Source of the DNA: Hymenobacter sp.
GTDB lineage: Bacteria; Bacteroidota; Bacteroidia; Cytophagales; Hymenobacteraceae
Reading direction: 5' to 3'
NCBI RefSeq assembly: GCF_035709525.1
Contig: NZ_DASTEP010000124.1
Coordinates: forward strand, 12,851 to 76,850
Length of the DNA: 64,000 nt
Of the stretch, positions 1 to 22,401 are shown one piece after another. The position numbers and the translations under genes were made by a program. The first letter of the stretch is position 1, and the number at the start of each line of letters is the position of its first letter. The notes under the pieces were generated by a model, which did not search any database, had not been told where the DNA came from, and worked only from the letters and a program-made list of their open reading frames with translations.

Positions 1-863
1 CGCCAGCGCACGCCGTGATAGGCGCGGAACACGGCCGATTTCTCGGCCAGCGCCGCCTCATCGAAGCGCACCACCGAAAAGGCGTGCTGCGCGAAGTAGT
101 CTTTGGGGAAAGCGTAGGGCAGGCCCCAGCGCTCGGGCTTGCGGTTGGCGGGCAAAAAGGCCGTGCCAAACATCCAATCCCAGAAAGCGAATTTGGTCGA
201 GAAGTTGGCGTAGTACACCTCTTCGTGGTCGGCGTGGTGCCAGAGGTGCATTTCGGGGCCGTTGATAACGTATTGCAGCTTACCCGATTTCACATCGATG
301 TTGGCGTGAATGTACATGCCCCACACGGCATCAATCAGCGCCTTGATGGGCACTACTATCGGGTTGGCCCCCAGCAGAATAATGGGCGCAAACTCGATGG
401 TTTGGTTGATGATAATCTCGACGATGTGCGAGCGCGAGCCAGCCAGCCAGTCCACGTGCTTGCCCGAGTGGTGCGCCTCGTGGGTGCGCCAGAAGAAGGC
501 GCTGCTGTGCTGAAAGCGGTGAAACCAGTAGATATAAAAATCGTGCGTTATCACGAAAAACGCTACCTGCGCCGCCACCGGCCAGCTACTCACCACGTGA
601 AAGCGCGCCCCAAAGTGCGCGGCCAGCGGCGCGATGATGAACCCGAAAATCAGGATTTGCAGGAAATAGCTCTGCACCAGCGTGTACCAAAAGAGGTCTA
701 CGAACAGCCCTTCGCGGAAAAACGGCAGCCCCTTGCGGTACGGAAACTTGCGCTCCAGCACCAGCAACACCGCCACCGCCAGCAGCAGGATGGGCGTGGT
801 TATCATCGTGGTACGGCCCACCGCGTCGAGGCTATGGTAAAACGTGCTTATCGTATCGAGCAT
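1..863 (-). CDS. Sterol desaturase / fatty acid hydroxylase family membrane protein (3' end runs off the window)
   Basis: Manual translation from ATG at 863 (MLDTISTFYHSLDAVGRTTMITTPILL...), absent from the ORF track because no stop lies in the window. Contains the His boxes YWFHRFQH, HEAHH and HLWHH of the di-iron membrane hydroxylase family, plus hydrophobic segments. Confidence 0.85.
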   Translation of the reverse strand, partial: MLDTISTFYHSLDAVGRTTMITTPILLLAVAVLLVLERKFPYRKGLPFFREGLFVDLFWYTLVQSYFLQILIFGFIIAPLAAHFGARFHVVSSWPVAAQVAFFVITHDFYIYWFHRFQHSSAFFWRTHEAHHSGKHVDWLAGSRSHIVEIIINQTIEFAPIILLGANPIVVPIKALIDAVWGMYIHANIDVKSGKLQYVINGPEMHLWHHADHEEVYYANFSTKFAFWDWMFGTAFLPANRKPERWGLPYAFPKDYFAQHAFSVVRFDEAALAEKSAVFRAYHGVRW

Positions 864-1068: not shown

Positions 1069-1090
1069 GCGGACTGAAAGTCCGCGCTAC
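1068..1090. repeat. Single hairpin unit of REP-like family B (GCGGACTGAAAGTCCGCGCTAC)
   Basis: Identical to the right half of the element at 41800-41862; abuts the NeuB stop codon. Confidence 0.75.
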
Positions 1091-1974
1091 TAGGCGGCCG
1101 TTACCTCGCGGCGCAGGCGACGCAGGGGCTCTTTCTCACTCTCGTACACCACTTTCACGCCGTCGCCGAGGCCGGCTTCGGTGTCGCGGATGTCGCGCAC
1201 AAGCTTGGCCATGCCACCGGGCTCTACGCTGGCGGCGTGGTCCGAGCCCCACATGGCGCGGTCGAGGGTGAAGTGGCGCTCTACGAACGTGGCGCCCAGG
1301 GCTACCGCCGTAACGGTGGTGCTGAGGCCGGTTTCGTGGCCCGAGTAGCCGATGGGCGTGCCGGGGAACTGTTGTTCCAGTGTTGAAATCATACGCAGGT
1401 TCAGCTCCTGGGGCGGGCAGGGGTAGGCCGACGTGCTGTGCGCAATCATCAGGTTATCAAGGCCTACGTAGGCTACGGCGTCCGTGATTTCCTGCTGGGT
1501 GCTCATGCCGGTGCTCAGCATGAGGGGGCGGCCGGTAGCGCGCACGCGGTCGAGCAGGGGCTTGTCGGTGAGCGAAGCGGAGGCCATTTTGTAGAGCACG
1601 GGCTGGAATTGCTCCATGAAATCGACCGAGGGCTCATCCCAGCACGAGGCAAACCAGTCGATGCCGCGGGCTTTGCAGTAGTCGTCGATGGCGGTGTACT
1701 CTTCGAGGCCAAACTCGGTTTTGCGCTTGTAGTCGATGTAGCTCATGCGGCCCCAGGGGGTGTCGCGCATTTTTTCCCACTGGTCTTTGGGCACGCACAG
1801 CTCGGGGGTGCGCTTCTGAAATTTTACCGCATCGCAGCCAGCGGTCACGGCCGCGTCGATGAGTTGCTTGGCAATGTCGAGCGAGCCGTTGTGGTTGATG
1901 CCGATTTCGGCAATGATGTAACACGGCTGGCCGGGGCCAATGGCGCGGTTTTTCTTGATTTGAACGACTGACAT
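1090..1974 (-). CDS. neuB: N-acetylneuraminate-synthase-family (NeuB) PEP-dependent ulosonate synthase, short form lacking the C-terminal antifreeze-like domain
   Basis: Motifs IAEIGINHNG, DAVKFQ, YKMAS, LSTGMS, HSTSAYP, GYSGHE, ERHFTLDR. At 294 aa it ends right after the TIM barrel. Confidence 0.92.
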   Translation of the reverse strand: MSVVQIKKNRAIGPGQPCYIIAEIGINHNGSLDIAKQLIDAAVTAGCDAVKFQKRTPELCVPKDQWEKMRDTPWGRMSYIDYKRKTEFGLEEYTAIDDYCKARGIDWFASCWDEPSVDFMEQFQPVLYKMASASLTDKPLLDRVRATGRPLMLSTGMSTQQEITDAVAYVGLDNLMIAHSTSAYPCPPQELNLRMISTLEQQFPGTPIGYSGHETGLSTTVTAVALGATFVERHFTLDRAMWGSDHAASVEPGGMAKLVRDIRDTEAGLGDGVKVVYESEKEPLRRLRREVTAA

Positions 1975-2183: not shown

Positions 2184-2711
2184 CTACTCCGAGCCGCGAT
2201 TGGGTACCGGCGCGCCGCCCTTGTGGCTGATAATGAGCTCGGCTAATTCGCGAAACGCGCCCTGCCCGCCGAAGGCCTGGCACTGGTAATCGGCCGCCTC
2301 GCGGGCAAAAACCGTGGCATCGCCGGGGCAGGCCGCCAACCCCACGAGGCCCAGAATAGCCACGTCGTTGGTATCGTCGCCGATGAAGGCTACTTCCTCG
2401 GCCGTGAGGCTCAGGCGGGTCAGAATCTCGGCCAGCAGCGGCGCTTTGTCCTTGATACCCAGGTGCAACTCATTGATTTTTAGCTTTTCGGCGCGCTTCA
2501 CCACCGAGGGCGAGCGCTCGCCGGTCACGATGCCCGTGTCCACGCCCACGGCGCGCAGGCGCTCCACGCCCATGCCATCGCGGATGTTGAAGCGCTTGAG
2601 CACCTCGCCGCTTTCGCCGTAGTACACGCCGCCATCGGTGAGGACGCCGTCGCAGTCGGTGAGCAAGAGTTTGATGCGGCGGGCTTTAGCAGCTAAGTCA
2701 GCGTGCTTCAT
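2184..2711 (-). CDS. KdsC/YrbI-type HAD phosphatase (Kdo-8-P / Kdn-9-P phosphatase family)
   Basis: LLLTDCDGVLTDG, FNIRDGMG, IVTGERS, FIGDDTND and GGQGAFRE motifs. Confidence 0.9.
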   Translation of the reverse strand: MKHADLAAKARRIKLLLTDCDGVLTDGGVYYGESGEVLKRFNIRDGMGVERLRAVGVDTGIVTGERSPSVVKRAEKLKINELHLGIKDKAPLLAEILTRLSLTAEEVAFIGDDTNDVAILGLVGLAACPGDATVFAREAADYQCQAFGGQGAFRELAELIISHKGGAPVPNRGSE

Positions 2712-2765: not shown

Positions 2766-2837
2766 GTTGCGCGGACTTTGTAGTCCGCGTGCGTACGCAA
2801 GCAGCCAACCGTACGCGGACTACAAAGTCCGCGCAAC
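2766..2837. repeat. REP-like family B: two inverted hairpin units (GCGGACTTTGTAGTCCGC ... GCGGACTACAAAGTCCGC)
   Basis: Nested palindrome read directly; ends at the SDR stop codon. Confidence 0.85.
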
Positions 2838-3643
2838 TAAATCGCCGTCCAGCCGCCATCCACCACGAGGTTGGCCCCCGTCATGTAAGCCGAAGCATCC
2901 GAGGCCAGAAACACCACGGCGCCTTGGTAATCGGTAGGCGCGGCCATGCGCCCCAGGGGCGTTTTGGCGCTGTACTGCTTCACAAAAAAGGCATCCTGGC
3001 TGTTCTCCACGCCGCCCGGCGAGAGCGTGTTTACGCGCACGCCCTTGGCGCCCCAGTAAGCCGCTAGGTAGCGCGTGAAATTGACTACCGCGCCCTTGGT
3101 AGTGGGATAAGACGGTGATTTATAGAACGTCTGCTCACCGGCCTCGTTGCGGTAGATGCTCTGGTCGGGCCCAACGATGCCGTAGGTACTCGCCACGTTG
3201 ATGATGGAACCACGGCCTTGCTCGGCCATCGGCGTGCCGAATACCTGCGCGGCCAGAAACAGCCCCGTCACGTTCACCTCCAGCACCTGCCGGAAGGTCG
3301 CCACCGGGAAGTTCTCAAACTTGCTGAGGTCGGCCGCCAGGGCCGGGTTCTCGAACATGTCGTTGATAGCCGCATTGTTAACCAGCACGTCGATGTGCCC
3401 GAAATTCTTGATAATTTCATCACGGGCGGCGGCCAGCGACTCGGGCGAGGTTACGTCCACGGCCAGCGGCAGGTGAATGGCGCCCGGCAGCGCGGCGGCC
3501 ACTTCGCGAGCCTTGTTGAGGTGCAGGTCGGCTACTACCACGTGGGCACCGGCCAGGGCCAGCGCCTCGCAGTGCTTTTGGCCGATGAGGCCGCACGCGC
3601 CGGTTACGATGGCGGTTTTGTTGGTTAGGTCGAAGAAATTCAT
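2837..3643 (-). CDS. SDR family oxidoreductase (resembles the SDRs found in nonulosonate clusters)
   Basis: TGACGLIG Rossmann motif, NNAA, YPTTK catalytic YxxxK, RVNTLSPGG and C-terminal VDGGWTA. Confidence 0.92.
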   Translation of the reverse strand: MNFFDLTNKTAIVTGACGLIGQKHCEALALAGAHVVVADLHLNKAREVAAALPGAIHLPLAVDVTSPESLAAARDEIIKNFGHIDVLVNNAAINDMFENPALAADLSKFENFPVATFRQVLEVNVTGLFLAAQVFGTPMAEQGRGSIINVASTYGIVGPDQSIYRNEAGEQTFYKSPSYPTTKGAVVNFTRYLAAYWGAKGVRVNTLSPGGVENSQDAFFVKQYSAKTPLGRMAAPTDYQGAVVFLASDASAYMTGANLVVDGGWTAI

Positions 3644-3654
3644 GTAGGATTTTA

Positions 3655-3840
3655 CCTAACGCAGCGCCTCACCCCTAGCCCCTCTCCGAAAAGGAGAGGG
3701 GGACTAGCCTCTAGTTCTTAGCTCTAGAAGCTACTGTGGGCCAGCTACCTGCGTAAGCAATAAATTAACTAGAGCTAAAACTAAAAGCTAGTTCCCCTCT
3801 CCTTTTCGGAGAGGGGCTAGGGGTGAGACGCTGCGTTAGG
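3655..3840. repeat. Long palindrome, family C (CCTAACGCAGCG..CACCCCTAGCCCCTCTCCGAAAAGGAGAGGGG ... CCCCTCTCCTTTTCGGAGAGGGGCTAGGGGTGAG..CGCTGCGTTAGG)
   Basis: Inverted arms of about 50 nt, each containing an internal hairpin. Confidence 0.85.
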
Positions 3841-3850
3841 CGAGCTAAGC

Positions 3851-5152
3851 CTACTTCGCCTTCACCGGCGCGGCGTTCGTCACCTTGCGGAATACGGCTT
3901 CCACCGGCTCGCCTTCCAGGCGGCTAGCCACGTCGCCCTTCTCGATAGCGTCTTTGAGCAGCGGCAGCACGGCGCGGTAGGCGTCCAACGTTTTAGCCAC
4001 GTCCTCGTCGGTGTGCGAGAAGCTCATGTTGTGGAAACCGCCCCACAGGATGCCCTGCTTGAACAGCTCCTGCTGCACGAAAGCCTTTACTTCCAGCGGG
4101 TTGCCAGCGCTGGCGTCGAAGGTCACGATGCTGCGGCAGTCGTAGCCGTAGCACTTGGTGTAGCTGCTGAGGCCGAGCTCGGCAGCGATTTGGTTGTAGC
4201 CTTCCTTCAGCTTGTTGCCCTGGCTGGCCAAAAACGCGGGCACGTTTTTCTCGCGCATCTCGCTGATGGTGGCGATGGTAGCCGCCAGGCTGAGCGCTTC
4301 ACCGCCGAAGGTGGTGAAGAAGAATACGTCCTGCTCAAACAGTTGCAGCACGTCCTTGCGGCCGGTGAGTAGGGCGATAGGCATCCCGTTGGCGCAAGCT
4401 TTCGAGTACACCGCGAGGTCGGGCGTGATGCCGAAATACTCCTGCGCGCCGCCAATAGCGATGCGGAAGCCCGTCCACATCTCGTCGAAAATCAGCAGCG
4501 TGCCGTTCTCTTTGCAGAGGCGGGCTACCTCGTGCAGGAAGTTGTCCTTGGGCGCGTCGAAAATGAATGGTTCCAGGATAACGCAGGCCACGTCGGGCGT
4601 CAGCACAGCCTTGAACGAGTCGAGGTTGTTGTACTCGAAGGCCGCTACCAAGTCCTTGCTTTCCTGCGGGATACCCTTGTCGCGGCTCGTGGTGCCGATG
4701 TACCAATCGTGCCATCCGTGGTAGCCGCAGCACAGCACGTCCTTGCGGCCGGTGAAGGCGCGGCTCACGCGCACGGCCGCCGAGCACACGTCAGCCCCGG
4801 TTTTGGAGATGCGGATGCTCTCGGCGTTGGGGATAATCTCGTGAATCAGCTCGGCTACCTCTACTTCCAGCTCGTGCATCATCGAAAACGTGATGCCGTC
4901 TTCGAGCTGCGCCTTGATGGCTTCATCCACGCGGGGGTAGGCGTAGCCCAGGCTCAGCGGGCCGATACCCATCTGGTAGTCAATGTACTCGTTGCCATCG
5001 ACGTCCCACACGTGGGCACCTTTGCCGCGCTTCACGTACTTGGGGCTCGCACCTTTGGTGTACTGGCCCGGCCCCTTGGCGAGGGTTTGGGTCACGGGCG
5101 TCATGATTTTCTGCGCCCGGGCGTAGAGGTCGTCGGATTTGGGGAAATTCAT
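3851..5152 (-). CDS. Class III PLP-dependent aminotransferase (glutamate-1-semialdehyde aminomutase-like)
   Basis: WDVDGNEYIDY, GYHGWHDWY, FDEMWTGFR and YSKACANG (PLP lysine). Start set at ATG 5152; the longer ORF-track start lies inside a repeat. Confidence 0.9.
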   Translation of the reverse strand: MNFPKSDDLYARAQKIMTPVTQTLAKGPGQYTKGASPKYVKRGKGAHVWDVDGNEYIDYQMGIGPLSLGYAYPRVDEAIKAQLEDGITFSMMHELEVEVAELIHEIIPNAESIRISKTGADVCSAAVRVSRAFTGRKDVLCCGYHGWHDWYIGTTSRDKGIPQESKDLVAAFEYNNLDSFKAVLTPDVACVILEPFIFDAPKDNFLHEVARLCKENGTLLIFDEMWTGFRIAIGGAQEYFGITPDLAVYSKACANGMPIALLTGRKDVLQLFEQDVFFFTTFGGEALSLAATIATISEMREKNVPAFLASQGNKLKEGYNQIAAELGLSSYTKCYGYDCRSIVTFDASAGNPLEVKAFVQQELFKQGILWGGFHNMSFSHTDEDVAKTLDAYRAVLPLLKDAIEKGDVASRLEGEPVEAVFRKVTNAAPVKAK

Positions 5153-5193
5153 AAGGATTAGCTGGTTAGCCAGAATGTCAGAAATAAAAACGC

Positions 5194-5289
5194 CTGTCAT
5201 GCTGAGCTTGCGAAGCATCTCATCACGATAGAATCGTCGGGTTCAACAATCCGGACGTGATAGGATGCCTCGCAAGCTCAGTATGACAG
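5194..5289. repeat. REP-like family A palindrome
   Basis: CTGTCATGCTGAGCTTGCGAAGCATC ... GATGCCTCGCAAGCTCAGTATGACAG. Confidence 0.85.
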
Positions 5290-5302: not shown

Positions 5303-6256
5303 TTACTCGGCAAACTCGTTTTCAACCACTTCCGTTTTCTCGTTGAAAACGTGCTGCTTATCACCCAGCTTCTCGCCGATGCGGCGGGCAATGTGCTGGC
5401 CGGTGAAACCTTCGTACTCCAGCACCTCGCTAAGGCGGCCGGGCTTGTACCACTTTTCCTTGAGGGCCAGCGGCAGCACCTTGGCGGTCAGCTCATTCTC
5501 CAGCAGCAGCTCGGCCACGATGGAGTAGAGGCCGCCGGTCTGGAAGTGGTCTTCCAGCGTCACCACGAGGCCGCCGGTTTTCACCACGTTCAGCACGGCT
5601 GCCGAGTCGAGGGGCTTGAGGCTGCGCAGGTTCACGAGGCCTACCGAGTAGCCGGCTTCGGTCAGCAAGTCCTTAGCTACCAGGGCTTGCCCGAACAGCA
5701 TGCCGTAGGTGAGGATGGTGACGTCGTGGCCTTCGCTCACGATTTCAGCCTTGCCGATTTCAAACGGCGCGTGCTGGTAGGTGGCGGGGCGGGTGTTGAC
5801 GCGCACGTAGGCCGGGCTGGGCGAGGCCCAGATGGCGGGCAGCATGGCCAACATGTCCTGCTCATCGGCGGCGGCGAAAACCGTCATGCCGGGGATGCCG
5901 CGCATCAGCGAGATATCCTCAATGGCCTGGTGGGTCGGCCCGTTGCCATCCGACAGAAAGCCGGGCACGAACGAGCTGATTTTCACCGGCAAGTTGGCAA
6001 TGCCCACGTCGGTGCGGATAAACTCGAACGCCCGCAGCGTGAGGAAGGTAGCCAGCGCGTGCACCACCGGCACGCGCCCGCGCAGGGCCAGGCCGGCCGC
6101 CGCGCCAATCATGGTTTGCTCGGTGATGCCGGTGTCGATGAAGCGCAGCCCGAGCGGCCCCGGCAGGTTGCGGATGAGGGCGCGGTTTTCGGCCGTCATC
6201 ACGATGAGGCGCTCGTCGGCGAGGGCCGTTTCGTGGATTAATTGCTCGTAATTCAT
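5303..6256 (-). CDS. Transketolase, C-terminal (pyrimidine-binding + C-terminal) subunit
   Basis: RFIDTGITEQTMIGAAAGLA, DGNGPTHQAIEDI and LRSLKPLD. Start MNYEQ at 6256. Confidence 0.9.
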   Translation of the reverse strand: MNYEQLIHETALADERLIVMTAENRALIRNLPGPLGLRFIDTGITEQTMIGAAAGLALRGRVPVVHALATFLTLRAFEFIRTDVGIANLPVKISSFVPGFLSDGNGPTHQAIEDISLMRGIPGMTVFAAADEQDMLAMLPAIWASPSPAYVRVNTRPATYQHAPFEIGKAEIVSEGHDVTILTYGMLFGQALVAKDLLTEAGYSVGLVNLRSLKPLDSAAVLNVVKTGGLVVTLEDHFQTGGLYSIVAELLLENELTAKVLPLALKEKWYKPGRLSEVLEYEGFTGQHIARRIGEKLGDKQHVFNEKTEVVENEFAE

Positions 6257-6268
6257 ATCGGTTAAAAT

Positions 6269-6381
6269 TGTCATGCTGAGCGCAGCGCAGCGGAGTCGGA
6301 GCATCTCTGCCGGTGAACTAACTCCTAACGCTAGCAGCGAAGCGGTAGAGATGCTTCGGCTTCGCTGCGCTCAGCATGACA
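6269..6381. repeat. REP-like family A palindrome
   Basis: TGTCATGCTGAGCGCAGC ... GCTGCGCTCAGCATGACA; its loop shares CTCCTAACGCTAGCA with the copy at 7253. Confidence 0.88.
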
Positions 6382-6386
6382 GTTAG

Positions 6387-7244
6387 TTATCTAACAGTGA
6401 GGGTTTCGCTGGTGAGCGTGGTAGCTTCCTGGCTGTGCAGCTCTTTGAGCAGCTCCGTCACCTCGTCGCTGCTGAAGTTGCAGAACCAGCGGTCGGCGCG
6501 GCGCTCGATGCTGGGCAGGCCCTTGCCGCGCACCGTGTCGCAGATGATAACCGAGGGCTTTTCCTGGCTGAACGGCAGGGCTGAAAACGCCTCTTCCAGC
6601 GCCACGAAATCGTGGCCGTCGATGCGGCGCACGGCGGCACCGAAAGCCTCAAACTTGGGCGCCAGCGGCTCCAGCGGAATCAGCTCCTCGGTGGCGATGT
6701 TGGCCTGGAAGTGGTTGCGGTCGACCACGAAGGTCAGGTTGTTGAGCTTGTGGGCGCTGGCTACCAGCACGGCTTCCCAGCAGGTACCCTCGTTGAGCTC
6801 ACCGTCGCCGGTTATCACGATGACTTTCTGATTTTGGCCGCGCAGGCGGGCGTCGAGAGCTACGCCCATGGCTACGCTCGGCAGGTGGCCCAGCGAGCCC
6901 GAGTGAAACTCCACGCCCGGCACGTTGCGGTTGGGGTGCCAGTAGATGCTGTCGCTGGTTTTCAAGTGATTATCCAGCCGCTCCTTGGGCATGAAGCCCA
7001 GCTCGGCAAACACCCCGTAGAGCGCCGGCACGTCGTGGCCCTTGCTCAGGAATAGGTAGTCGCGCTCCGAGTCGGTGAGGTTGCCGGGGTGCACGTTGAG
7101 AAAATCGGCGTAGAGGTACACCAGCAGGTCGGCGCAACTCAGCGAGGCGCCCGTGAAGCAGCCGCCATCGGTGCTGAGGCGCACGATGTGCTCGCGCACG
7201 CGCAGGGCGAGTTCTTTTAGCTCGTTTTGTTTTTCGGAGGTCAT
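6387..7244 (-). CDS. Transketolase, N-terminal (ThDP-binding) subunit
   Basis: LSKGH, HSGSLGH and the GDGELNEG...N ThDP-binding motif. Confidence 0.9.
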   Translation of the reverse strand: MTSEKQNELKELALRVREHIVRLSTDGGCFTGASLSCADLLVYLYADFLNVHPGNLTDSERDYLFLSKGHDVPALYGVFAELGFMPKERLDNHLKTSDSIYWHPNRNVPGVEFHSGSLGHLPSVAMGVALDARLRGQNQKVIVITGDGELNEGTCWEAVLVASAHKLNNLTFVVDRNHFQANIATEELIPLEPLAPKFEAFGAAVRRIDGHDFVALEEAFSALPFSQEKPSVIICDTVRGKGLPSIERRADRWFCNFSSDEVTELLKELHSQEATTLTSETLTVR

Positions 7245-7380: not shown

Positions 7381-8175
7381 TTACAATTGCTTGGTATTGC
7401 CCGCGTCCACCGTTTTGAGTTCGTCCAAGTGGTTGCGGTACCAGTTCACGCCGGCCAGGTCGGCATTCAAGGCGTAAATGTCCGGCCTTTGTTTTAATAA
7501 AGTCAGGATATCGTCCAAACCAAACTCGGGATTAACCGGATAAAGCGCTTCGTACACGGCCTTTATGAAGTCATAATCGGCCGGGTAATCGATGGTGAGG
7601 CGGTGCGACATCGAGTAGTCCAGCCCCGTTTCCCAGGTGATATTAGCCAATCGGAAGCGCTCGGGGTTTTCCCAGAAAAAAGGGGTAGTGTGCTCGCGCT
7701 CCAAGGGGCGGCGGGCCTCGCGCCAGGCCGTTTCGAGCGCCGCGAAGGTCATTACCTCCACGTCGTTGCCATCGGGGTAGGTAGCGGGGTGCAGGTTGCT
7801 GACAAAGTCGTACTGGCCCTGCGTTTCCTCATAATAACCCAGCACCTTATCGATAATGGCCGGGTCGATGAGCGGGCAATCACTCGGGATTTTCACTACT
7901 GCCTCCGTTTCGCCAAAGTGCCGCGCCGCCTGGTAGTGGCGGTCGAGCAAGTCGAGCGCCGAGCCCCGAAATACTTCAATACCGTGCTGCGCGCACAGCG
8001 CGGCCAGCGGGTCGTCGCTTTGCTCATCGGTGGTGATGACGGCCACGCGGCCCGCCCGGGTGGCCAGTTGCACCCGCTCTACCTGGCGCACCAATAGCGG
8101 CTTGCCGCAGAGGTCGAGACTTACTTTATCGGGAAAGCGCGAGGAGCCGCGCCGGGCCTGAATTAGCGTGAGCAT
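7381..8175 (-). CDS. SpsF-type cytidylyltransferase (CMP-ulosonate synthetase-like)
   Basis: IQARRGSSRFPDKV, VFRGS..DLLDR, SDCPLIDP, YPDGNDVE, REHTTPF and RLTIDYPADY. Confidence 0.88.
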   Translation of the reverse strand: MLTLIQARRGSSRFPDKVSLDLCGKPLLVRQVERVQLATRAGRVAVITTDEQSDDPLAALCAQHGIEVFRGSALDLLDRHYQAARHFGETEAVVKIPSDCPLIDPAIIDKVLGYYEETQGQYDFVSNLHPATYPDGNDVEVMTFAALETAWREARRPLEREHTTPFFWENPERFRLANITWETGLDYSMSHRLTIDYPADYDFIKAVYEALYPVNPEFGLDDILTLLKQRPDIYALNADLAGVNWYRNHLDELKTVDAGNTKQL

Positions 8176-8246: not shown

Positions 8247-9314
8247 CTAGTGCGTGGCGGGGGCCAGTTCGGCTGGGGCGGGCACCTCGGCGGCCGGCCG
8301 GTACTGGCGCAAAAACTCCGCGCCGGAGCCCGCAAACTGCCCGTATTGCCGGCACAGGTCGGCAATGCGGCGGGCGCTGGTGCCGCCATTCTGAATGGGC
8401 AGCTTGCGCTTGAGGTCGTCGACATCGAAGTAGGAATGCACGGGGATGCCAAGCGCCAAACCCACGTAAGCTACAGTACTATACTGCGTTATCAGCTCTA
8501 CGCAGTTGGCTATCATTTCCTCGGTGTTGCCGCTGGTGAAAATGCGCGTGCCAGGCGGGGCCCATTTTTCGACCTCGGCGGTGGCGCGGGCCATGTTTTC
8601 GTTGGGGTGAAACTTGAAGAACATGGGCCGCCCGGCCGCGATGCGGGTAGCGTGCCGGATAAACTTTTTGCGGTTATCGGGCCGGTAGGTTTCGCGCATG
8701 TCGGTGGTGGCCACCAGCACGTAGCCGCGGTGCGGAAAGCTATTATTGCGCAGCTTCTCGATGTTGTCGAAATTCGGAATGCCCGTCACGATGAGCTTAT
8801 CCTTGTCGACCCCGATTTTCTCGAAGTGCTCGGCGTAGCCCGGCGAGGCCACGCAGTACACGTCGCAGATGTTGTTCATCCCGTTCAGCGCGGTGCTGAT
8901 GGTGAGGATGGGAAAGTTGGTAAACTTCTTCACCAGGCGCGCCCACAGGTTGAGCGGGTCGGTCATGCCCTCCTGCACGAACACCGACTTGGTTTTCTTG
9001 AGCAGGTTCCAGGGCACGATGATGTCGGAGCAGCACACGATGAGGTCGTACTCGTGGCCGAATACGCGGTTCTCGAAGTCATTGCGCAGGTTGTGGGCGG
9101 CCAGGTACTTATCGCCCTTTTCCTTGATGTGGCCCTGCACGATGGTTTGCTTCAGCCCGCCGGTGCGCAGCAAAAACTGGTAGAAGCCCCGCATCCAGCC
9201 ATCGTAGTAAAGCTGGCTGAAATAGGGCTCGTACTCATCCTCAAGCAGCTGCGCGATGCCGTGCATCTGCGTAGTCTGGTTGGGCGAGCCGATTAAATAA
9301 AGCGCCTTTTTCAC
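8247..9314 (-). CDS. Hypothetical protein, probable GT-B fold glycosyltransferase (candidate ulosonate transferase)
   Basis: GTG start. Contains VQEG, VTGIPNFD, FKFHPNE and STVAYVGLALGIP, recalling CMP-sugar and teichoic-type transferases. Family not confirmed. Confidence 0.6.
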   Translation of the reverse strand: MKKALYLIGSPNQTTQMHGIAQLLEDEYEPYFSQLYYDGWMRGFYQFLLRTGGLKQTIVQGHIKEKGDKYLAAHNLRNDFENRVFGHEYDLIVCCSDIIVPWNLLKKTKSVFVQEGMTDPLNLWARLVKKFTNFPILTISTALNGMNNICDVYCVASPGYAEHFEKIGVDKDKLIVTGIPNFDNIEKLRNNSFPHRGYVLVATTDMRETYRPDNRKKFIRHATRIAAGRPMFFKFHPNENMARATAEVEKWAPPGTRIFTSGNTEEMIANCVELITQYSTVAYVGLALGIPVHSYFDVDDLKRKLPIQNGGTSARRIADLCRQYGQFAGSGAEFLRQYRPAAEVPAPAELAPATH

Positions 9315-11981: not shown

Positions 11982-14942
11982 GTGAATAAATTAGTTGTTA
12001 TCCTGCTCGCGCTGTGCGGCGCGGGGCAGCTCCGCGCCCAGTCGGGTGCCTGGCTGCCCGATAGTGCCCGCCCGGCGTATCCGCGCACCTTGCTCGCAGC
12101 CCCGGCCCTGCCCCAGGTGCAAGCCTCGCTGGCCGAGCCCGGCCGGCGCGCCATCTACCAGAGCCTGTGGGCCGACGTGCAAAGCCCGCCGCCCACCGAC
12201 AACACCTCGGCCAGCGGGCGGCGGGCGCGGGCCACCTGGGCCAAAAACGCGGCCTTCGCAGTGCTGCTAAACCGGCAGCCGGCCGGCGCGGGCCTGGCCC
12301 CGCTGCCCGCCGAAACGCACGATGCCCTGGCCGCCAGCGCCCGCAGCCTGCTCGAAAGCCTGAACACCGAAGTAGAGCCCTTCGCCACCTGGACTGGCAC
12401 CATGCCCTACACCGAGTGGCAGTGGCGCTCGAAGGAGCTGATTGACTACCTGATAGCCTACGACCTGCTGCGCGGCGCGGGTGAAAGCGCGGCCGCGCTA
12501 GCGGCCGGCCAGGCCCGGCTCCAGGTTTTTGCGGGCAACCTCTACCGGCAGTCGACCACGCCGCTGATGGGTATCACGTTTTACAGCGCCGTCAAAAACA
12601 ACCACACCCTGATGACGGCCGCCGCCCTGGGCATGGCCGCCGTGGTGCTGAACGACGCGACCAGCACCGACGCCAACCAACAGCCCGCCCGCTGGGCCGG
12701 CGCGGGGCTGCACACCATCGACAACGTGCTGTGGCGCGACGCCCAGCGGCAGTCTGACTCGACGCAGGTGGCGGGCTACGCCGAGGGGCCGTACTACTGC
12801 AAGTACGCGCTGCTCAACTGCTTACCGTATTTCCGGGCGATGGGTAATTTTCTGCCCGATGGCCGCCTGCCTTACACTTTCGGCGGCAGCACGCGGAGCA
12901 TCCGCAACCCCTATTTCGACCCCAAATACGACCGGCTATATGAGTGGCTGACGGCCATCCGGCTGCCCGACGGGCGGCTGCCGGCGCTGGAAGACTCCTA
13001 CGTAGACATGGGCATGCCCGAGCTGGCCCTCACCGGCAAGCCGCAGTATGCCAAGCCGATGTACTACAGTAAAATAACGGGCACGGGCATGGCCTCCGAC
13101 CTGGCGCAGCTGCGCGACGCCACCGTGGACATGCGCGCCGCCTGGCTGGCCGCCGCCGTGGCCCCCACCGCGCCCGCGCACCCGGCCCTGACGGTGCTGC
13201 CGGGCAGCGGCAACTTGATTTTTCGGTCGGGCGCCGACTCGGCCGCCACCTACCTGCACGTGTACGGCCGCGGCGGCACAGCCCAAAGCAACAGCGGCGG
13301 CCACAACCAGGGCGACGCCAGCAGCTTCATTTTGCACGCGCAGGGGCAGCTGCTGGCCCTCGACCCCGGCTACCTCAGCTACGGCCGCCGGGCCGAGGTG
13401 GGCGCGGCCACCAGCCACAACCTAGTGCTGGTAGATGGCGCGGGCCCCGCCCTGGGCGCGCCCGGCGCTACCAACTCGGCCCCCGCCGCCATCGAGCGCA
13501 CCTTCCAAACGCCGCAGCTCAGCTACGGCGAGGTAACGACGAGCTACCAGCAGGCCCGCCTCACGCGCAAGACGCTGTTTGTGCGCAACACCTACTACCT
13601 GCTGGCCGATGCCGTGAGCGCCGCCGCACCCCGCACCTACACCTGGCAGCTGCACGGCTACGGCCTGGCGGGCGGCACGGCCGCCACTGGCACCTTCGCG
13701 GGCAATCTGGCTGGGCACGAGGGCACCTGGCAAAAAAACGGCGTGCGCCTGCTGGCCCACGTGGCGGGCACCGGCACGGCCGCCACCTATGCCACCGCTA
13801 CCAACCCCCACGAAACTACCTATAACACCGCCGAAAACCACACCACGCTGCTGGTGCAGCAAAGCGGCACAACCCAAACGCAGTTTTTGAGCGCGCTCTA
13901 CCCCTACGCTGCCCAGCCGCCGCAGGTGGCCACCACCAGCCAGGCCACCACGGCCGCGCTGGCCACCGCCGCCGAGGGCTTCGTGGATGTCGCCTTCGCG
14001 CAGGCCGATACCGTGCTGACTGCCGACGCCAGCGGCCGGCTGCCGCAGGCCGTGCAGGCCGATGGGCTGCTCAATTTTTATTCGGCCGACGCCAACGGCA
14101 AGTTCGCCCAGCTTTTTGTGCAGGCGGGCACCACGCTGCAAGTCGGCCCCGCGGCCGTGCTGACGTCCGCACGCCGGGCCGATATAAGCTGGCAGCGCCT
14201 CAGCCCCGGCCACTACGCCGGCTACGCCAGCCGCGCCACCACGCTGCTGCTGGCGCTGGGCAGCGCGCCCAGCGCCGTGCGCGGCGCGGGCGTGGCCAGC
14301 TACGCCTACGATGCCGGCTTACAGCAACTGCGCGTAGTACTAAGCCAGGCTTCGGACTTTGAGGTAGCGCTGCCGGCCGCCGGCAGCGGCACCGCACCGC
14401 TGCCGGTGGTGCTCACCGATTTTGCGGGCCAGCGCCAGAGCGCGGCCGTGGCGCTGAGCTGGCACACGGCGTCGGAGCAGCACAATGCGGGCTTCGAGGT
14501 GCAGCGCCGGACGGCGGAAGCGGCCGATTTTACTACCCTTGGCTTTGTGGTGGGCGCGGGCACGGCCAGCCGCAACACGGGCTACGCCTTCCGCGACGCG
14601 GCGGCCCCAGCCGGGCTGGTGTACTACCGCCTGCGGCAGCTCGACCGTGATAGCACCGCTACCTACTCGCCCGTGGTGGCCGTGGCGGGTACCACCCCGG
14701 CCGGGGCCGCCGAGGCCAGCATGCGGGTGTTTCCGCAGCCCGCCCGCGACTGGCTGCGGGTGCAGATGGCCGGCTCCGCGCCGCCCACCACGCTGCAGCT
14801 GCTCGATAACCTGGGCCGCGTGGTGCGCCAGCAACTTTGCCAAACCGAAACGCAGCTGGATGTGCGCGGGCTACCCGCCGGCCTCTACTACCTGGTGGCC
14901 AGCGGCACCGCTGGGCGTCAAAAAGTGGTCATCGAACCTTAA
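11982..14942 (+). CDS. Heparinase II/III-like polysaccharide lyase with T9SS C-terminal sorting domain
   Basis: Signal peptide; NNH, EGPYY, GHNQGD..SF, DPG and SHN.V.VDG motifs; PLPVVLTDF Ig-like module; VFPQPA...GLYYL sorting tail. Confidence 0.82.
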   Translation: MNKLVVILLALCGAGQLRAQSGAWLPDSARPAYPRTLLAAPALPQVQASLAEPGRRAIYQSLWADVQSPPPTDNTSASGRRARATWAKNAAFAVLLNRQPAGAGLAPLPAETHDALAASARSLLESLNTEVEPFATWTGTMPYTEWQWRSKELIDYLIAYDLLRGAGESAAALAAGQARLQVFAGNLYRQSTTPLMGITFYSAVKNNHTLMTAAALGMAAVVLNDATSTDANQQPARWAGAGLHTIDNVLWRDAQRQSDSTQVAGYAEGPYYCKYALLNCLPYFRAMGNFLPDGRLPYTFGGSTRSIRNPYFDPKYDRLYEWLTAIRLPDGRLPALEDSYVDMGMPELALTGKPQYAKPMYYSKITGTGMASDLAQLRDATVDMRAAWLAAAVAPTAPAHPALTVLPGSGNLIFRSGADSAATYLHVYGRGGTAQSNSGGHNQGDASSFILHAQGQLLALDPGYLSYGRRAEVGAATSHNLVLVDGAGPALGAPGATNSAPAAIERTFQTPQLSYGEVTTSYQQARLTRKTLFVRNTYYLLADAVSAAAPRTYTWQLHGYGLAGGTAATGTFAGNLAGHEGTWQKNGVRLLAHVAGTGTAATYATATNPHETTYNTAENHTTLLVQQSGTTQTQFLSALYPYAAQPPQVATTSQATTAALATAAEGFVDVAFAQADTVLTADASGRLPQAVQADGLLNFYSADANGKFAQLFVQAGTTLQVGPAAVLTSARRADISWQRLSPGHYAGYASRATTLLLALGSAPSAVRGAGVASYAYDAGLQQLRVVLSQASDFEVALPAAGSGTAPLPVVLTDFAGQRQSAAVALSWHTASEQHNAGFEVQRRTAEAADFTTLGFVVGAGTASRNTGYAFRDAAAPAGLVYYRLRQLDRDSTATYSPVVAVAGTTPAGAAEASMRVFPQPARDWLRVQMAGSAPPTTLQLLDNLGRVVRQQLCQTETQLDVRGLPAGLYYLVASGTAGRQKVVIEP

Positions 14943-18838: not shown

Positions 18839-20083
18839 ATGTCTGTCCCCACCCACTTCGTTTCGCACGCCGAGCGCCTCATGGCCCTCGAAGACCAGTA
18901 CGGTGCCCACAACTACCACCCGCTGCCCGTGGTGCTTTCGCGCGGCAAAGGCGTGCATCTGTGGGACGTGGAAGGCAAGCGCTACCTGGATTTCTTATCC
19001 GCCTACTCGGCTGTTAACCAAGGGCATTGTCACCCGCGCATTATCGGGGCGCTGACCGAGCAGGCGCAGCAGCTCACGCTCACCAGCCGAGCGTTTTTCA
19101 ACGACCGGCTGGGCGCGGCCGAGCAGCAGCTCTGCGAGCTTTTTGGCTACCAGAAAGCATTGCTGATGAACTCGGGAGCCGAGGCCGTCGAAACCGCCCT
19201 CAAGCTGGCCCGCAAGTGGGGCTACCAGGAAAAAGGCATCGCGCCCAACCAGGCGCGCATCATCGTGGCCGAACACAACTTCCACGGGCGCACCACGGGC
19301 ATCATTTCCTTCAGCACCGACGGCGACAGCACGGGCGGCTTCGGCCCCTTCGTGCCCGGCTACCAGGTAGTGCCGTATGACGATGCAGAGGCGCTGGCCG
19401 AAGCCCTCAAAGACCCGCACGTGTGCGGCTTTCTGGTCGAGCCCATCCAGGGCGAGGCGGGCGTGGTAGTGCCCAGCGAAGGCTATTTGAGCCAGGCCGC
19501 CAAGCTCTGCAAAGCGCACAACGTGCTGCTTATCACCGACGAAATTCAGACCGGGCTGGGCCGCACCGGCAAACTACTGGCCACCGACTACGAAGACGTG
19601 CGCGGCGATATTCTCATCTTGGGCAAGGCCCTGAGTGGCGGCGTACTACCCGTGTCGGCGGTGCTGGCCGACGATGAGATTATGCTCACCATTCAGCCCG
19701 GGCAGCACGGCTCTACGTTCGGCGGCAACCCGCTGGCCTGCGCCGTGATGCAGGCTGCGCTCGATGTCTTAGTAGATGAAAACCTGGCCGATAATGCAAT
19801 GCGCCTGGGCAAGATTTTCCGCGAGGAAATGCGCCTGCTGCAAGCCGAAGTGCCCGAGCTGGTAGAAACCGTGCGCGGCCGGGGCCTGCTCAACGCCGTG
19901 GTTATCAGCCCCACGCCCGATGGCCGCACCGCCTGGGACGTGTGCGTGGCCCTCATGGAGCGCGGCCTGCTGGCCAAGCCCACCCACGGCGACATCATCC
20001 GCTTTGCGCCGCCGCTCGTCATCACGGAAGCCGAATTGCGCGATGCCTGCGCCCTGATTGCCGACGTTATCCGGGCTTTTTGA
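18839..20083 (+). CDS. rocD: Ornithine--oxo-acid aminotransferase
   Basis: [43 protein letters not shown] and HGSTFGGNP. Confidence 0.95.
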
Positions 20084-21308: not shown

Positions 21309-21408
21309 CTTGCCGCTGTAGTTGGTGGTTAATAAGGATTCCAAGTTTTTAAATGCAAAAGGTCATCTGGTAGTTATCCAGCGGCTTACGCTACCCTACT
21401 TACGCCCT

Positions 21409-22401
21409 ATGTCCCTCATCCCCACGCACCGCCCCCGCCGCAATCGCAAGTCGCAGGTTATCCGCGACATGGTGCAGGAAACGCGCCTCACGACCCACGA
21501 TTTCATTTACCCACTCTTCATCATCGAAGGCCAGAACCAGCAGCTGGAAGTGAAGTCGATGCCCGGCATCTACCGCTACTCGGCCGACCGCGTTATCGAC
21601 GAAGTAGGCGCGGCCGTGGAGCTTGGCATCAACGCCTTCGCGCCCTTCCCCAGCATCAACGACGGCCTGAAAGACCGGCTGGCCCGCGAGTCAACTAACC
21701 TCAACGGCTTGTACCTGAAGGCCGTGGCCGACATCAAGCGGCAGTTCCCGGAGGTGGCCATCATGACCGATGTGGCGATGGACCCTTACAGCAGCGACGG
21801 CCACGACGGCGTGGTAGACGTGGATTCGGGCGAAATTCTCAACGATGCCTCGCTCGAAGTGCTCGGCCAGATGGCCCTGGCCCAGGCCCGCGCCGGGGCC
21901 GACATCATCGGCCCCAGCGACATGATGGACGGCCGCGTGGCCTGGATACGCGACGTGCTGGATAGCAACGGCTTCAGCCACGTCAGCATCATGAGCTACA
22001 CTGCCAAGTACGCTTCGGCGTTCTACGGCCCCTTCCGCGACGCGCTCGACTCGGCCCCCAAAAAGGGCGACAAAAAGAGCTACCAGATGAACCCCGCCAA
22101 CCGCCTCGAAGCCCTGCGCGAGTTGGCCCTCGACGAAACCGAAGGCGCGGATATGGTGATGATTAAGCCCGCCCTGAGCTACCTCGACATCATCCGGGAA
22201 GTGAAAAACCACACCCACCTACCCGTTACTGCCTACAACGTATCGGGCGAGTACGCCATGGTGCGCGCCGCCGCCCTCAACGGCTGGGTCGATGGCGAAA
22301 AAACCATGATGGAAGTGCTTATGAGCATCAAGCGCGCCGGGGCCGATGCCATTTTGACCTACTTCGCTAAGGACGCGGCCGAGGTGCTGCGGCGTGGATA
22401 A
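21409..22401 (+). CDS. hemB: Porphobilinogen synthase (ALA dehydratase)
   Basis: RPRRNR, DVAMDPYSSDGHDG, PSDMMDGR, SAFYGPFRDAL and MIKPAL. Start ATG 21409. Confidence 0.96.
   Translation: MSLIPTHRPRRNRKSQVIRDMVQETRLTTHDFIYPLFIIEGQNQQLEVKSMPGIYRYSADRVIDEVGAAVELGINAFAPFPSINDGLKDRLARESTNLNGLYLKAVADIKRQFPEVAIMTDVAMDPYSSDGHDGVVDVDSGEILNDASLEVLGQMALAQARAGADIIGPSDMMDGRVAWIRDVLDSNGFSHVSIMSYTAKYASAFYGPFRDALDSAPKKGDKKSYQMNPANRLEALRELALDETEGADMVMIKPALSYLDIIREVKNHTHLPVTAYNVSGEYAMVRAAALNGWVDGEKTMMEVLMSIKRAGADAILTYFAKDAAEVLRRG

What the first reader, a model, noticed from the sequence alone, without database searches (positions are those of the whole stretch)
2837..5152. SDR plus class III aminotransferase may aminate the ulosonate after synthesis
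Seen: adjacent SDR and GSA-aminomutase-like aminotransferase (GYHGWHDW motif). Established: in Shewanella, Kdo is converted to 8-amino-Kdo by a dehydrogenase (KdnB, a metal-dependent alcohol dehydrogenase) and a class III aminotransferase (KdnA). Inference: an analogous oxidation/transamination here, but with an SDR and a NeuB-derived sugar, could give for example a terminal-amino Kdn-like sugar.
Basis: partly seen in the sequence, partly recalled or inferred. Interest (0 to 1): 0.6.

Follow-up and report, generated by a model that had tools for sequence, protein, structure and literature searches.

The report
Hydroxyl-to-amine enzyme pair for sugar acid
Two neighbouring genes (a dehydrogenase and a transaminase) in a Hymenobacter operon most likely swap a hydroxyl for an amino group on a sialic-acid-like sugar after it is built; green sulfur bacteria have a different enzyme pair, whose transaminase resembles Shewanella KdnA, at the same spot in the operon.

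Summary
Observation confirmed. A classical NAD-type SDR (2837-3643, minus) and a GSA-aminomutase-like class III aminotransferase (3851-5152/5218, minus; GYHGWHDW at aa 165-172) are real. They lie next to each other in 71 of 75 related loci and are fused into one protein in some organisms.

The aminotransferase is not HemL. The genome has a true hemL elsewhere, and this protein lacks the SPVR motif and 9 residues of the gating loop.

The strongest evidence comes from class Chlorobia. The same operon frame (flippase-like gene, orf355, cytidylyltransferase) is followed either by this class III AT, with the SDR in the genome, in 10 genomes, or by an Fe-alcohol dehydrogenase plus a DegT aminotransferase in 60 genomes. 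No genome has both. The DegT enzyme's best solved relative is Shewanella KdnA (E 2.7e-76).

One detail of that reading is wrong: KdnA is DegT-type, not class III.

Relatives of the AT are fused to cytidylyltransferases and oxidoreductases inside nonulosonic-acid clusters. The position of the amine is unresolved (the terminal carbon is favoured), as is the role of the optional transketolase-like enzyme.

Earlier reports of this scan on other DNA describe the same operon. No paper in the library searched described it.

The parts
2837..3643 (-). Classical SDR dehydrogenase (268 aa), predicted to oxidise a hydroxyl of the ulosonate to a carbonyl
   Evidence: Pfam adh_short_C2 E 2.6e-48. Asp39 points to NAD preference, and the tetrad is N124/S152/Y179/K183, with an unusual 27-residue Ser-Tyr spacing. 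Best NCBIfam hits are gluconate 5-DH and PRK09186 (PtmA-like), all below their cut-offs. Fused to the AT in P0124.
3851..5218 (-). GSA-aminomutase-like class III aminotransferase (probable start at 5152), predicted to transaminate the carbonyl made by the SDR
   Evidence: Aminotran_3 E 2.6e-44. The hemL model scores 234 bits against a cut-off of 527, and a true hemL lies elsewhere in the genome. Fusions with CTP_transf_3, GFO_IDH_MocA, SDR and GNAT are.
7381..8175 (-). SpsF-type cytidylyltransferase (CTP_transf_3), predicted CMP-activation of the (amino-)ulosonate
   Evidence: Pfam E 2.8e-26. It is 37-50% identical to the N-terminal domain of the CTP_transf_3-AT fusion proteins.
5303..7244 (-). 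Split transketolase/DXS-like ThDP enzyme (N subunit 6387-7244, C subunit 5303-6304); accessory, role unresolved
   Evidence: Pfam and NCBIfam hits. It is absent from 19 of 74 scorable loci, with no orthologue elsewhere in 5 such genomes. It lacks the THDS His and the GED Asp of the genome's own transketolase.
2184..2711 (-). KdsC/KDN-9-P-phosphatase-type HAD phosphatase; frees the terminal hydroxyl of the ulosonate phosphate
   Evidence: NF058599 scores 159.6 bits (cut-off 180) and TIGR01670 scores 146.6 (cut-off 107). The top PDB hit is the 3e81 group.
1090..1974 (-). Short NeuB-family synthase without a SAF domain (294 aa); makes the ulosonate phosphate
   Evidence: Pfam NeuB E 1.5e-77. It is 61-85% identical in the related loci and 66% identical in Chlorobiaceae.
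8247..9314 (-). orf355, first gene of the operon, no Pfam/NCBIfam match; co-distributed with both amination modules
   Evidence: It is present in 71 of 81 Chlorobia genomes, which equals the 60 with the KdnA-like gene, the 10 with the class III AT, and one more.
3..863 (-). Membrane fatty-acid-hydroxylase family gene (distant OlsE-like), last gene of the operon, runs off the window
   Evidence: FA_hydroxylase E 5.4e-27. The OlsE model scores 106 bits against a cut-off of 475. It follows NeuB in 60 loci.

Best explanation
The SDR and the class III aminotransferase form a two-step hydroxyl-to-amine converter that acts on the 3-deoxy-ulosonic acid made by the operon's own short NeuB and HAD phosphatase. 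The proposed sequence is as follows, and every step is inferred.

1. NeuB condenses PEP with a sugar phosphate. This is most likely mannose-6-P, giving Kdn-9-P.
2. The phosphatase frees the sugar acid.
3. The NAD-dependent SDR oxidises one hydroxyl to a carbonyl.
4. The PLP enzyme transfers an amino group to it from an amino acid.
5. The SpsF-type cytidylyltransferase makes the CMP-sugar.
6. The product goes to a membrane acceptor.

The terminal CH2OH is the favoured site, which would give a 9-amino-9-deoxy-Kdn-type sugar. C5 (true neuraminic acid) or C8 cannot be excluded, nor can action on the CMP-sugar rather than the free sugar. The pair is the non-homologous equivalent of the Fe-ADH/DegT (KdnB/KdnA-type) pair used by Chlorobiaceae in the same operon frame.

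What is shown: the gene identities, their linkage, the fusions, the displacement pattern and the non-HemL character of the AT. What is inferred: substrate, site and order of steps.
For: 1. Linkage. The SDR directly follows the AT in 71 of 75 loci, and AT-SDR fusion proteins exist.

2. In-situ displacement. In 6 of 6 Chlorobiaceae loci the order is LPG_synthase_TM - orf355 - CTP_transf_3 - Fe-ADH - DegT AT. Chloroherpetonaceae have LPG_synthase_TM - orf355 - CTP_transf_3 - TK - class III AT, with SDR-HAD-NeuB-FAH elsewhere.

3. Complementary distribution. In 81 Chlorobia genomes the KdnA-like gene is in 60, the class III AT in 10 and both in none. orf355 is in 71.

4. KdnA relationship. The DegT enzyme's top PDB hit is KdnA (5k8b) at E 2.7e-76, against 1.7e-48 for the next hit. 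The best relatives of the Fe-ADH act on primary alcohols or aldehydes: 1,3-propanediol, lactaldehyde, methanol, 4-hydroxybutyrate and choline. KdnB/KdnA convert free Kdo to Kdo8N before it is incorporated (PMC4402001).

5. Autonomous core. The NeuB+HAD pair stands alone beside housekeeping genes in Chlorobiaceae and is 66%/55% identical to the window's. It is therefore an autonomous module that makes the sugar, and the amination modules are add-ons.

6. Family context. The AT family is fused to CTP_transf_3, to GFO_IDH_MocA, or to both. These fusions lie in nonulosonic-acid clusters: 43 of 80 loci have a canonical NeuB. In L181 the precursor aminations are already covered by a PseC-type enzyme, which points to late tailoring.

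7. Precedent. [quoted passage not shown]

8. Cofactor. Asp39 in the SDR suggests NAD(H), which fits oxidation (with the established SDR cofactor rule).
Against: There is no biochemical evidence for any member of this operon.

The gene order TK-AT-SDR-HAD-NeuB would also fit a route in which a ketose phosphate is aminated and then oxidised before condensation.

The Fe-ADH of Chlorobiaceae is only a distant relative of KdnB (E 1e-14, rank 29).

SDRs oxidise secondary alcohols more often than primary ones. The GFO_IDH_MocA partners of related ATs usually oxidise ring hydroxyls, which argues against a terminal site for the family as a whole.

The identity of the sugar is open: 8, 9 or more carbons. 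The HAD scores almost equally against KDN-9-P and Kdo-8-P phosphatases.

The transketolase-like enzyme has no place in the scheme.
Confidence: 0.65

Rival explanations
1. Amination before condensation. The transketolase-like enzyme supplies a ketose phosphate. The class III AT aminates its C2 keto group to give a 2-amino-2-deoxy-alditol phosphate, as GabT1 does with fructose-6-P in 1-deoxynojirimycin biosynthesis. The SDR then oxidises C1 to give a 2-amino-aldose phosphate, which NeuB condenses with PEP. This would give a neuraminic-acid-type sugar directly.
For: The gene order TKN-TKC-AT-SDR-HAD-NeuB matches this sequence of reactions. Class III enzymes can aminate open-chain ketose phosphates (GabT1-Yktc1-GutB1 route, PMC12348909, plus my own knowledge). 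The result would carry the amine at C5, which I recall was reported for the Chlorobium lipid.
Against: The transketolase-like genes are missing from 19 loci, with no orthologue elsewhere. TK-plus and TK-minus ATs interleave on the tree. In Chlorobiaceae the equivalent module is a KdnA-like enzyme plus an Fe-ADH of primary-alcohol type, and the known relative KdnA acts on a finished ulosonate. The fused relatives sit in pseudaminic-type clusters that already have their precursor aminotransferase.
Confidence: 0.15
2. The pair acts on something other than the sugar. Candidates are the lipid or aglycone acceptor, or an acyl substituent: for example, making an amino-alcohol or amino-acyl group that is later attached.
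For: The operon always ends with a membrane lipid hydroxylase-family gene. In Methylomagnum it continues into lplT and an OlsB/OlsA-like N-/O-acyltransferase pair. Haloarchaeal AT homologues sit next to a ceramidase-like gene. One relative is fused to a GNAT.
Against: The AT family's commonest fusion partner is a CMP-ulosonate-type cytidylyltransferase, and its commonest neighbours are NeuB-family synthases. The displacement partner in Chlorobiaceae is KdnA-like. The AT-SDR pair also occurs without lipid genes nearby (L037).
Confidence: 0.08
3. The aminotransferase is a second glutamate-1-semialdehyde aminomutase (HemL) for tetrapyrrole synthesis, and the SDR is unrelated.
For: The best solved relatives are GSAMs (E 6e-56), and some sources name the homologues GSA aminomutase.
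Against: The hemL model scores 234 bits against a cut-off of 527. A true hemL scoring 618 bits lies on another contig. The SPVR motif is replaced, 9 residues of the gating loop are deleted and there is an extra C-terminal segment of about 30 aa. The gene is locked into a sugar operon in hundreds of genomes.
Confidence: 0.01

Closest known systems
Kdo8N pathway of Shewanella oneidensis (KdnB Fe-alcohol dehydrogenase/oxidase + KdnA aminotransferase; Gattis et al. 2013 as summarised in PMC4402001; PDB 5k8c, 5k8b)
   Same: The logic is the same: a finished, dephosphorylated 3-deoxy-ulosonic acid is oxidised and then transaminated, and is later CMP-activated. A KdnA-like enzyme and an Fe-ADH occupy the position of the AT and SDR in the Chlorobiaceae version of this operon.
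   Different: The enzymes are not homologous: SDR instead of Fe-ADH, and class III fold instead of DegT. The sugar comes from a NeuB-family synthase, not KdsA, and the genome has a separate KdsA. The cytidylyltransferase is SpsF/PseF-like, not KdsB. The site of amination is unproven.
EpaA/EpaB of Acinetobacter baumannii prophages (Pse5Ac7Ac to 8-epi-Pse5Ac7Ac; PMC12053666)
   Same: An adh_short_C2 SDR works with a tailoring enzyme that is fused to, or adjacent to, a CTP_transf_3 cytidylyltransferase, on a finished nonulosonic acid.
   Different: The second enzyme there is an aldo-keto reductase, so the outcome is epimerisation. Here it is a PLP aminotransferase, so the outcome is amination. 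The window's SDR was not compared directly with EpaB.
Kdn pathway of Bacteroides thetaiotaomicron (KDN-9-P synthase BT1714, KDN-9-P phosphatase BT1713)
   Same: A NeuB-family synthase is paired with a KdsC-type HAD phosphatase. The window's HAD has the BT1713 structures (3e81 group) as its top PDB hit and scores 159.6 bits on the KDN-9-P phosphatase model.
   Different: The score is below the model's cut-off of 180 and barely above the KdsC scores. No dehydrogenase, aminotransferase or transketolase-like genes belong to the Bacteroides pathway (my own knowledge).
Glutamate-1-semialdehyde 2,1-aminomutase (HemL)
   Same: It shares the class III fold, and HemL is its closest solved relative. It also shares the PLP lysine and the Asp.
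   Different: It falls below the hemL cut-off. It has a shortened gating loop, SPVR is replaced by TQTLAKGP, and it has an extra C-terminal EPVFRK segment. A true hemL is present elsewhere.
GabT1/Yktc1/GutB1 route to 1-deoxynojirimycin in Bacillus
   Same: It combines a class III aminotransferase, a phosphatase and a dehydrogenase acting on a sugar skeleton.
   Different: The order is amination first, on a ketose phosphate. The dehydrogenase is Zn-dependent (my own knowledge). There is no PEP condensation and no CMP activation. This is the model for the rival explanation.

Membership tests
Class III (fold type I) aminotransferases, Pfam PF00202 | Profile match above the gathering score; PLP-binding lysine and pyridine-N aspartate | tested here: met
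   152 bits against a cut-off of 30.5. K273 (YSK) and D245 (FDEMW) align with the genome's own HemL.
Glutamate-1-semialdehyde 2,1-aminomutase (HemL, TIGR00713) | Score above the curated equivalog cut-off | tested here: not met
   234.3 bits against a cut-off of 527.3. The genome's true hemL scores 617.9.
Glutamate-1-semialdehyde 2,1-aminomutase (HemL, TIGR00713) | N-terminal GGVNSPVRAF substrate-binding motif and full-length active-site gating loop | tested here: not met
   In the alignment with the genome's own HemL, SPVRAF is replaced by TQTLAKGP (Arg to Lys) and 9 residues of the loop after the (C/G)YHG motif are deleted. Both changes are conserved across the family.
KdnA family (8-amino-3,8-dideoxy-manno-octulosonate transaminase, DegT/DnrJ/EryC1 fold) | DegT_DnrJ_EryC1 domain; KdnA (5k8b) as a close relative | tested here: not met
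   The AT has no DegT hit, and 5k8b is not among its 60 best PDB hits, all of which are class III. KdnA is the top hit of the DegT enzyme of the Chlorobiaceae operon. The AT may work like KdnA but is not a member of its family.
KdnB family (Fe-dependent alcohol dehydrogenase, PF00465) | Fe-ADH domain | tested here: not met
   The window's dehydrogenase is an SDR. An Fe-ADH occupies this role only in Chlorobiaceae.
Classical short-chain dehydrogenases/reductases | TGxxxGxG, NNAA/G, and the Asn-Ser-Tyr-Lys tetrad | tested here: met
   The motifs are at aa 14-21 and 89-92, with N124, S152, Y179 and K183. adh_short_C2 scores 165 bits. The Ser-Tyr spacing is 27 residues, longer than usual.
PtmA / PRK09186 'flagellin modification protein A' SDRs (NF006619) | Score above the curated cut-off | tested here: not met
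   173.2 bits against a cut-off of 255, although the alignment is full-length. It is a relative, not a member.
KDN-9-phosphate pathway (synthase plus phosphatase, NF058599) | Phosphatase scoring above the KDN-9-P phosphatase cut-off and clearly above the KdsC models | tested here: inconclusive
   159.6 bits against a cut-off of 180, and KdsC models score 146-148. In the PDB, the BT1713 group scores E 2.4e-34 against 3.5e-34 for a YrbI-type phosphatase.
Transketolase (for the neighbouring split ThDP enzyme) | THDS histidine and GED aspartate before GPTHQ in the Pyr domain, as in the genome's own transketolase | tested here: not met
   The genome's own TK reads FTHDSIGLGEDGPTHQ, whereas the operon enzyme reads SFVPGFLSDGNGPTHQ. 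The dxs and transketolase models score equally, both far below their cut-offs.

The most novel reading that the evidence does not exclude
The operon, found in Bacteroidota, Ignavibacteriota and Chlorobiota and in isolated Nitrospirota and Methylomagnum copies, makes a terminal-amino Kdn (9-amino-3,9-dideoxy-nonulosonic acid). This sugar is an isomer of neuraminic acid with the same mass, and it would be displayed on a membrane lipid as a phosphorus-free zwitterionic head group. The sugar of the 'aminoglycosphingolipid' reported from Chlorobium limicola in 1991 would be this compound, made there by the KdnB/KdnA-type variant of the module. By my recollection, that sugar was called neuraminic acid. 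If so, two unrelated enzyme pairs would have been recruited independently for the same hydroxyl-to-amine step.
Probability: 0.25. Interest if true: 0.75.

Novelty: new variant of a known kind. Interest (0 to 1): 0.6.

Why it matters
Converting a hydroxyl to an amine on a finished ulosonic acid is known experimentally only for Kdo in Shewanella. The evidence here suggests the same step is widespread. It appears to be carried out by at least two unrelated enzyme pairs on a NeuB-derived sugar, in an operon conserved in hundreds of genomes of the Bacteroidota-Ignavibacteriota-Chlorobiota group.

This gives candidate genes for the amino-sugar lipid of green sulfur bacteria, for which I found no genes described in the library searched. 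It also offers a clean genetic test: cross-complementation between the two module types in Chlorobaculum, which I understand to be genetically tractable.

In addition, it flags a large, misannotated branch of 'glutamate-1-semialdehyde aminomutases' as sugar-tailoring transaminases. These are often fused to CMP-sugar synthetases in pseudaminic-type surface-glycan loci.

Tried and rejected
I obtained the context of the fusion proteins instead from a metagenome scan and a plasmid search.
- Literature searches found nothing that describes the operon. They covered the aminoglycosphingolipid, neuraminic acid plus Chlorobium, green sulfur bacteria plus sialic acid, GSA plus transketolase plus NeuB, and triamino nonulosonic acids. 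The Gattis 2013 paper is not held, so KdnA's family was established through the PDB instead.
- PtmA (legionaminic acid pathway) was considered as a functional guide for the SDR. The papers held give only annotation, so I dropped it.
- PDB searches with the HAD and NeuB did not tell an 8-carbon from a 9-carbon product.
- A phage search with the SDR did not recover EpaB-like genes.
- I considered that the short NeuB+HAD might replace KdsA/KdsC. This is rejected, because canonical KdsA and KdsC are present in Hymenobacter and/or Chlorobiaceae.
- I considered that the transketolase-like enzyme acts between the SDR and the AT, extending an aldehyde by two carbons, or that it removes the keto-acid co-product of transamination. 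The first is disfavoured by the interleaving of TK-plus and TK-minus ATs. Neither can be tested here.
- No structure prediction was run. The folds are not in doubt, and a model would not identify the substrate.
Full report
**What is there.** On the minus strand of the window's first 9.3 kb lies one co-directional gene row:
- orf355 (8247-9314; no family match)
- an SpsF-type CTP_transf_3 cytidylyltransferase (7381-8175)
- a split transketolase/DXS-like ThDP enzyme (6387-7244 and 5303-6304)
- a class III aminotransferase (3851-5218)
- an SDR (2837-3643)
- a KdsC/KDN-9-P-phosphatase-type HAD (2184-2711)
- a short NeuB without a SAF domain (1090-1974)
- a membrane fatty-acid-hydroxylase-family gene that runs off the window (3-863)

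The organism is a Hymenobacter; the AT is 96% identical to that of H. setariae Fur1. Homologues begin at Met23, so 5152 is the likely start.

**The two proteins themselves.** The SDR is a classical one, with a Gly motif at aa 14-21, NNAA, and the tetrad N124/S152/Y179/K183. It has Asp39 at the end of beta-2, which by the established SDR cofactor rule indicates NAD(H) and so fits an oxidative role. It also has an unusually long Ser-Tyr spacing. Its best named relatives are gluconate 5-dehydrogenase and the PtmA-like PRK09186 family, all below their cut-offs.

The AT keeps the PLP lysine (K273) and the Asp (D245), but it is not HemL:
- It scores 234 bits on the hemL model against a cut-off of 527.
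- The genome has a true hemL scoring 618 bits on another contig.
- Aligned with that HemL, the whole AT family replaces GGVNSPVRAF by xxTQTLAKGP, deletes 9 residues of the gating loop and adds a conserved C-terminal segment ending in EPVFRK.

**Conservation.** A scan of one genome per species returned more than 599 relatives. In the best 80 loci the order orf355 - cytidylyltransferase - [TK-N - TK-C] - AT - SDR - [HAD] - NeuB - hydroxylase is kept. These loci span Bacteroidota, Ignavibacteriota, Kapaibacteria, Chloroherpetonaceae and a Nitrospirota MAG. The SDR directly follows the AT in 71 of 75 loci that have room. A Methylomagnum plasmid carries the same operon, which there continues into lplT and an N-acyl/O-acyltransferase pair.

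The transketolase-like genes are missing from 19 loci. Five such genomes have no orthologue elsewhere. On a quick AT tree, TK-minus rows interleave with TK-plus rows at short distances, needing 3-6 changes. The ThDP enzyme is therefore an accessory and does not define the AT's substrate. It also lacks the THDS histidine and the GED aspartate of the genome's own transketolase.

**The decisive comparison.** In class Chlorobia (81 sampled genomes), orf355 is present in 71 and a short NeuB in 73, but the class III AT orthologue is present in only 10, apparently Chloroherpeton-like genomes. Four complete Chlorobiaceae genomes have no orthologue of the AT, the SDR or the window-type cytidylyltransferase. 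Their HAD-NeuB pair (55% and 66% identical to the window's) stands alone beside housekeeping genes.

Their orf355 lies in a different operon: LPG_synthase_TM (flippase-like) - orf355 - PseF-like CTP_transf_3 - Fe-alcohol dehydrogenase - DegT aminotransferase. This order is conserved in 6 of 6 loci. The DegT enzyme's best solved relative, by a wide margin, is KdnA of Shewanella (5k8b; E 2.7e-76 against 1.7e-48 for the next hit). The Fe-ADH's best relatives are enzymes of primary alcohols and aldehydes. KdnB (5k8c) is a distant hit.

Chloroherpetonaceae have the same left end (LPG_synthase_TM - orf355), followed by the window-type cytidylyltransferase, TK and the class III AT. The KdnA-like gene is in 60 genomes and the class III AT in 10. 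No genome has both, and genomes without orf355 have neither. This is a non-orthologous displacement of a cytidylyltransferase + dehydrogenase + aminotransferase module within a single operon frame. It argues that SDR + class III AT do the job that the KdnB/KdnA-type pair does. In Shewanella that job is the conversion of free Kdo to 8-amino-Kdo before incorporation (PMC4402001).

**The wider AT family.** A search of 1.8 billion representatives found many fusion proteins. By Pfam these are:
- AT-SDR (P0124, whose SDR half is 51% identical to the window's)
- CTP_transf_3-AT
- GFO_IDH_MocA-AT
- GFO_IDH_MocA-CTP_transf_3-AT
- GNAT-AT

The N-terminal domain of the CTP_transf_3-AT fusions is 37-50% identical to the window's cytidylyltransferase. 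Of 80 metagenome loci, 43 also carry a canonical NeuB and 43 a DegT aminotransferase. One locus, L181, reads PseB - PseC - GNAT - GFO_IDH_MocA - [CTP_transf_3-AT] - PseG/H - formyltransferase-like - PIG-L - NeuB+SAF. There the precursor amination is already provided for, so the oxidoreductase/AT looks like late tailoring tied to CMP activation.

An experimental precedent for this architecture exists. [quoted passage not shown]

**Mechanism proposed.** NeuB and the HAD make and dephosphorylate the ulosonate. The phosphatase uncovers the terminal hydroxyl. The SDR oxidises a hydroxyl and the AT aminates the carbonyl. The cytidylyltransferase then activates the amino sugar acid. orf355 and the lipid-related genes point to a membrane acceptor, but I did not study that part.

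I favour the terminal carbon for three reasons. Both Chlorobiaceae enzymes belong to families or sub-branches that handle primary alcohols and aldehydes. GSAM-like class III enzymes typically handle aldehydes. The phosphatase step fits this logic.

Several points count against a firm assignment. SDRs and GFO_IDH_MocA enzymes usually oxidise secondary hydroxyls. EpaB acts at C8. By my recollection of Jensen et al. 1991 (only the title is verified), the Chlorobium lipid was reported to contain neuraminic acid, with the amine at C5. A terminal-amino Kdn would have the same mass as neuraminic acid.

**Rivals.** Amination before condensation would fit the gene order, with a ketose phosphate aminated and then oxidised as in the deoxynojirimycin route. 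It does not fit the KdnA-type displacement, the dispensability of the TK-like enzyme or the pseudaminic-type contexts. I give it 0.15. Action on a lipid or acyl group gets 0.08, and HemL function 0.01.

**Novelty and status.** No paper in the library searched describes this operon. Earlier reports of this scan on other genomes describe the same operon and the same SDR+AT pair, and separately an Fe-ADH+DegT pair. I used one of them as the lead to Chlorobia and another for the EpaA/EpaB paper. Everything cited above was tested here.

I class the finding as a new variant of a known kind: the chemistry is Kdo8N-type, but the enzymes are non-homologous and the sugar is NeuB-derived.

Noticed in passing
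L111:6605-11760 (and L109-L114), Chlorobiaceae genomes: Chlorobiaceae have a conserved operon: LPG_synthase_TM/HpnL-like flippase - orf355 orthologue - PseF-like cytidylyltransferase - Fe-ADH - KdnA-like DegT aminotransferase. The HAD-NeuB pair lies elsewhere in the genome. These are candidate genes for the amino-sugar lipid of green sulfur bacteria.
   Followed up: partly
L139:8198-18739 (Methylomagnum ishizawai plasmid pRS11DPr1): A gammaproteobacterial methanotroph plasmid carries the whole operon (AT 56% identical). It is followed by lplT, which overlaps the HAD gene, and by an overlapping pair of a GNAT N-acyltransferase and a lysophospholipid acyltransferase that resembles OlsB/OlsA. This is a second, independent link to membrane lipids.
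   Followed up: no
window 5303-7244: The split 'transketolase' lacks the THDS histidine and the GED aspartate found in the genome's own transketolase, and it scores equally on DXS and transketolase models. It is absent from 19 of 74 scorable related loci. Its reaction is unknown.
   Followed up: partly
window 2184-2711; G000 whole genome: The operon's HAD is the only strong KdsC-type phosphatase found in this genome. Several other Hymenobacter species lack a HAD in the operon (L002-L004, L030). The enzyme may therefore also serve Kdo synthesis, or the step may be shared.
   Followed up: no
G000:C186:11726-16510: The same genome has a second nonulosonic-acid locus, with a canonical NeuB (37% identical to the short one) and a paralogue of the window-type cytidylyltransferase (37% identical).
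   Followed up: no
window 18839-20083 and 21322-22401: A second class III aminotransferase has a full-length Pfam match (E 2.5e-124) but scores only 149 bits on the hemL model. It lies about 1.2 kb upstream of a delta-aminolevulinate dehydratase gene. Its function was not examined.
   Followed up: no
window 11982-14942: A 986-aa protein has a heparinase II/III-like domain and a type IX secretion C-terminal sorting domain, in a stretch with about 70% GC.
   Followed up: no
L140:7671-12655 (Natrononativus plasmid) and other haloarchaeal plasmids: Haloarchaeal homologues of the AT (42-44% identical) sit beside a DegT aminotransferase, a PIG-L deacetylase and a neutral-ceramidase-like gene. This is a different and unexplained context for the family.
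   Followed up: no
L037:3517-5669: In a Flavobacteriales MAG the AT and SDR genes overlap by 4 nt. Within the 13.8 kb held they stand without the rest of the operon, next to two TMEM260-like (GT-C type) membrane proteins.
   Followed up: no
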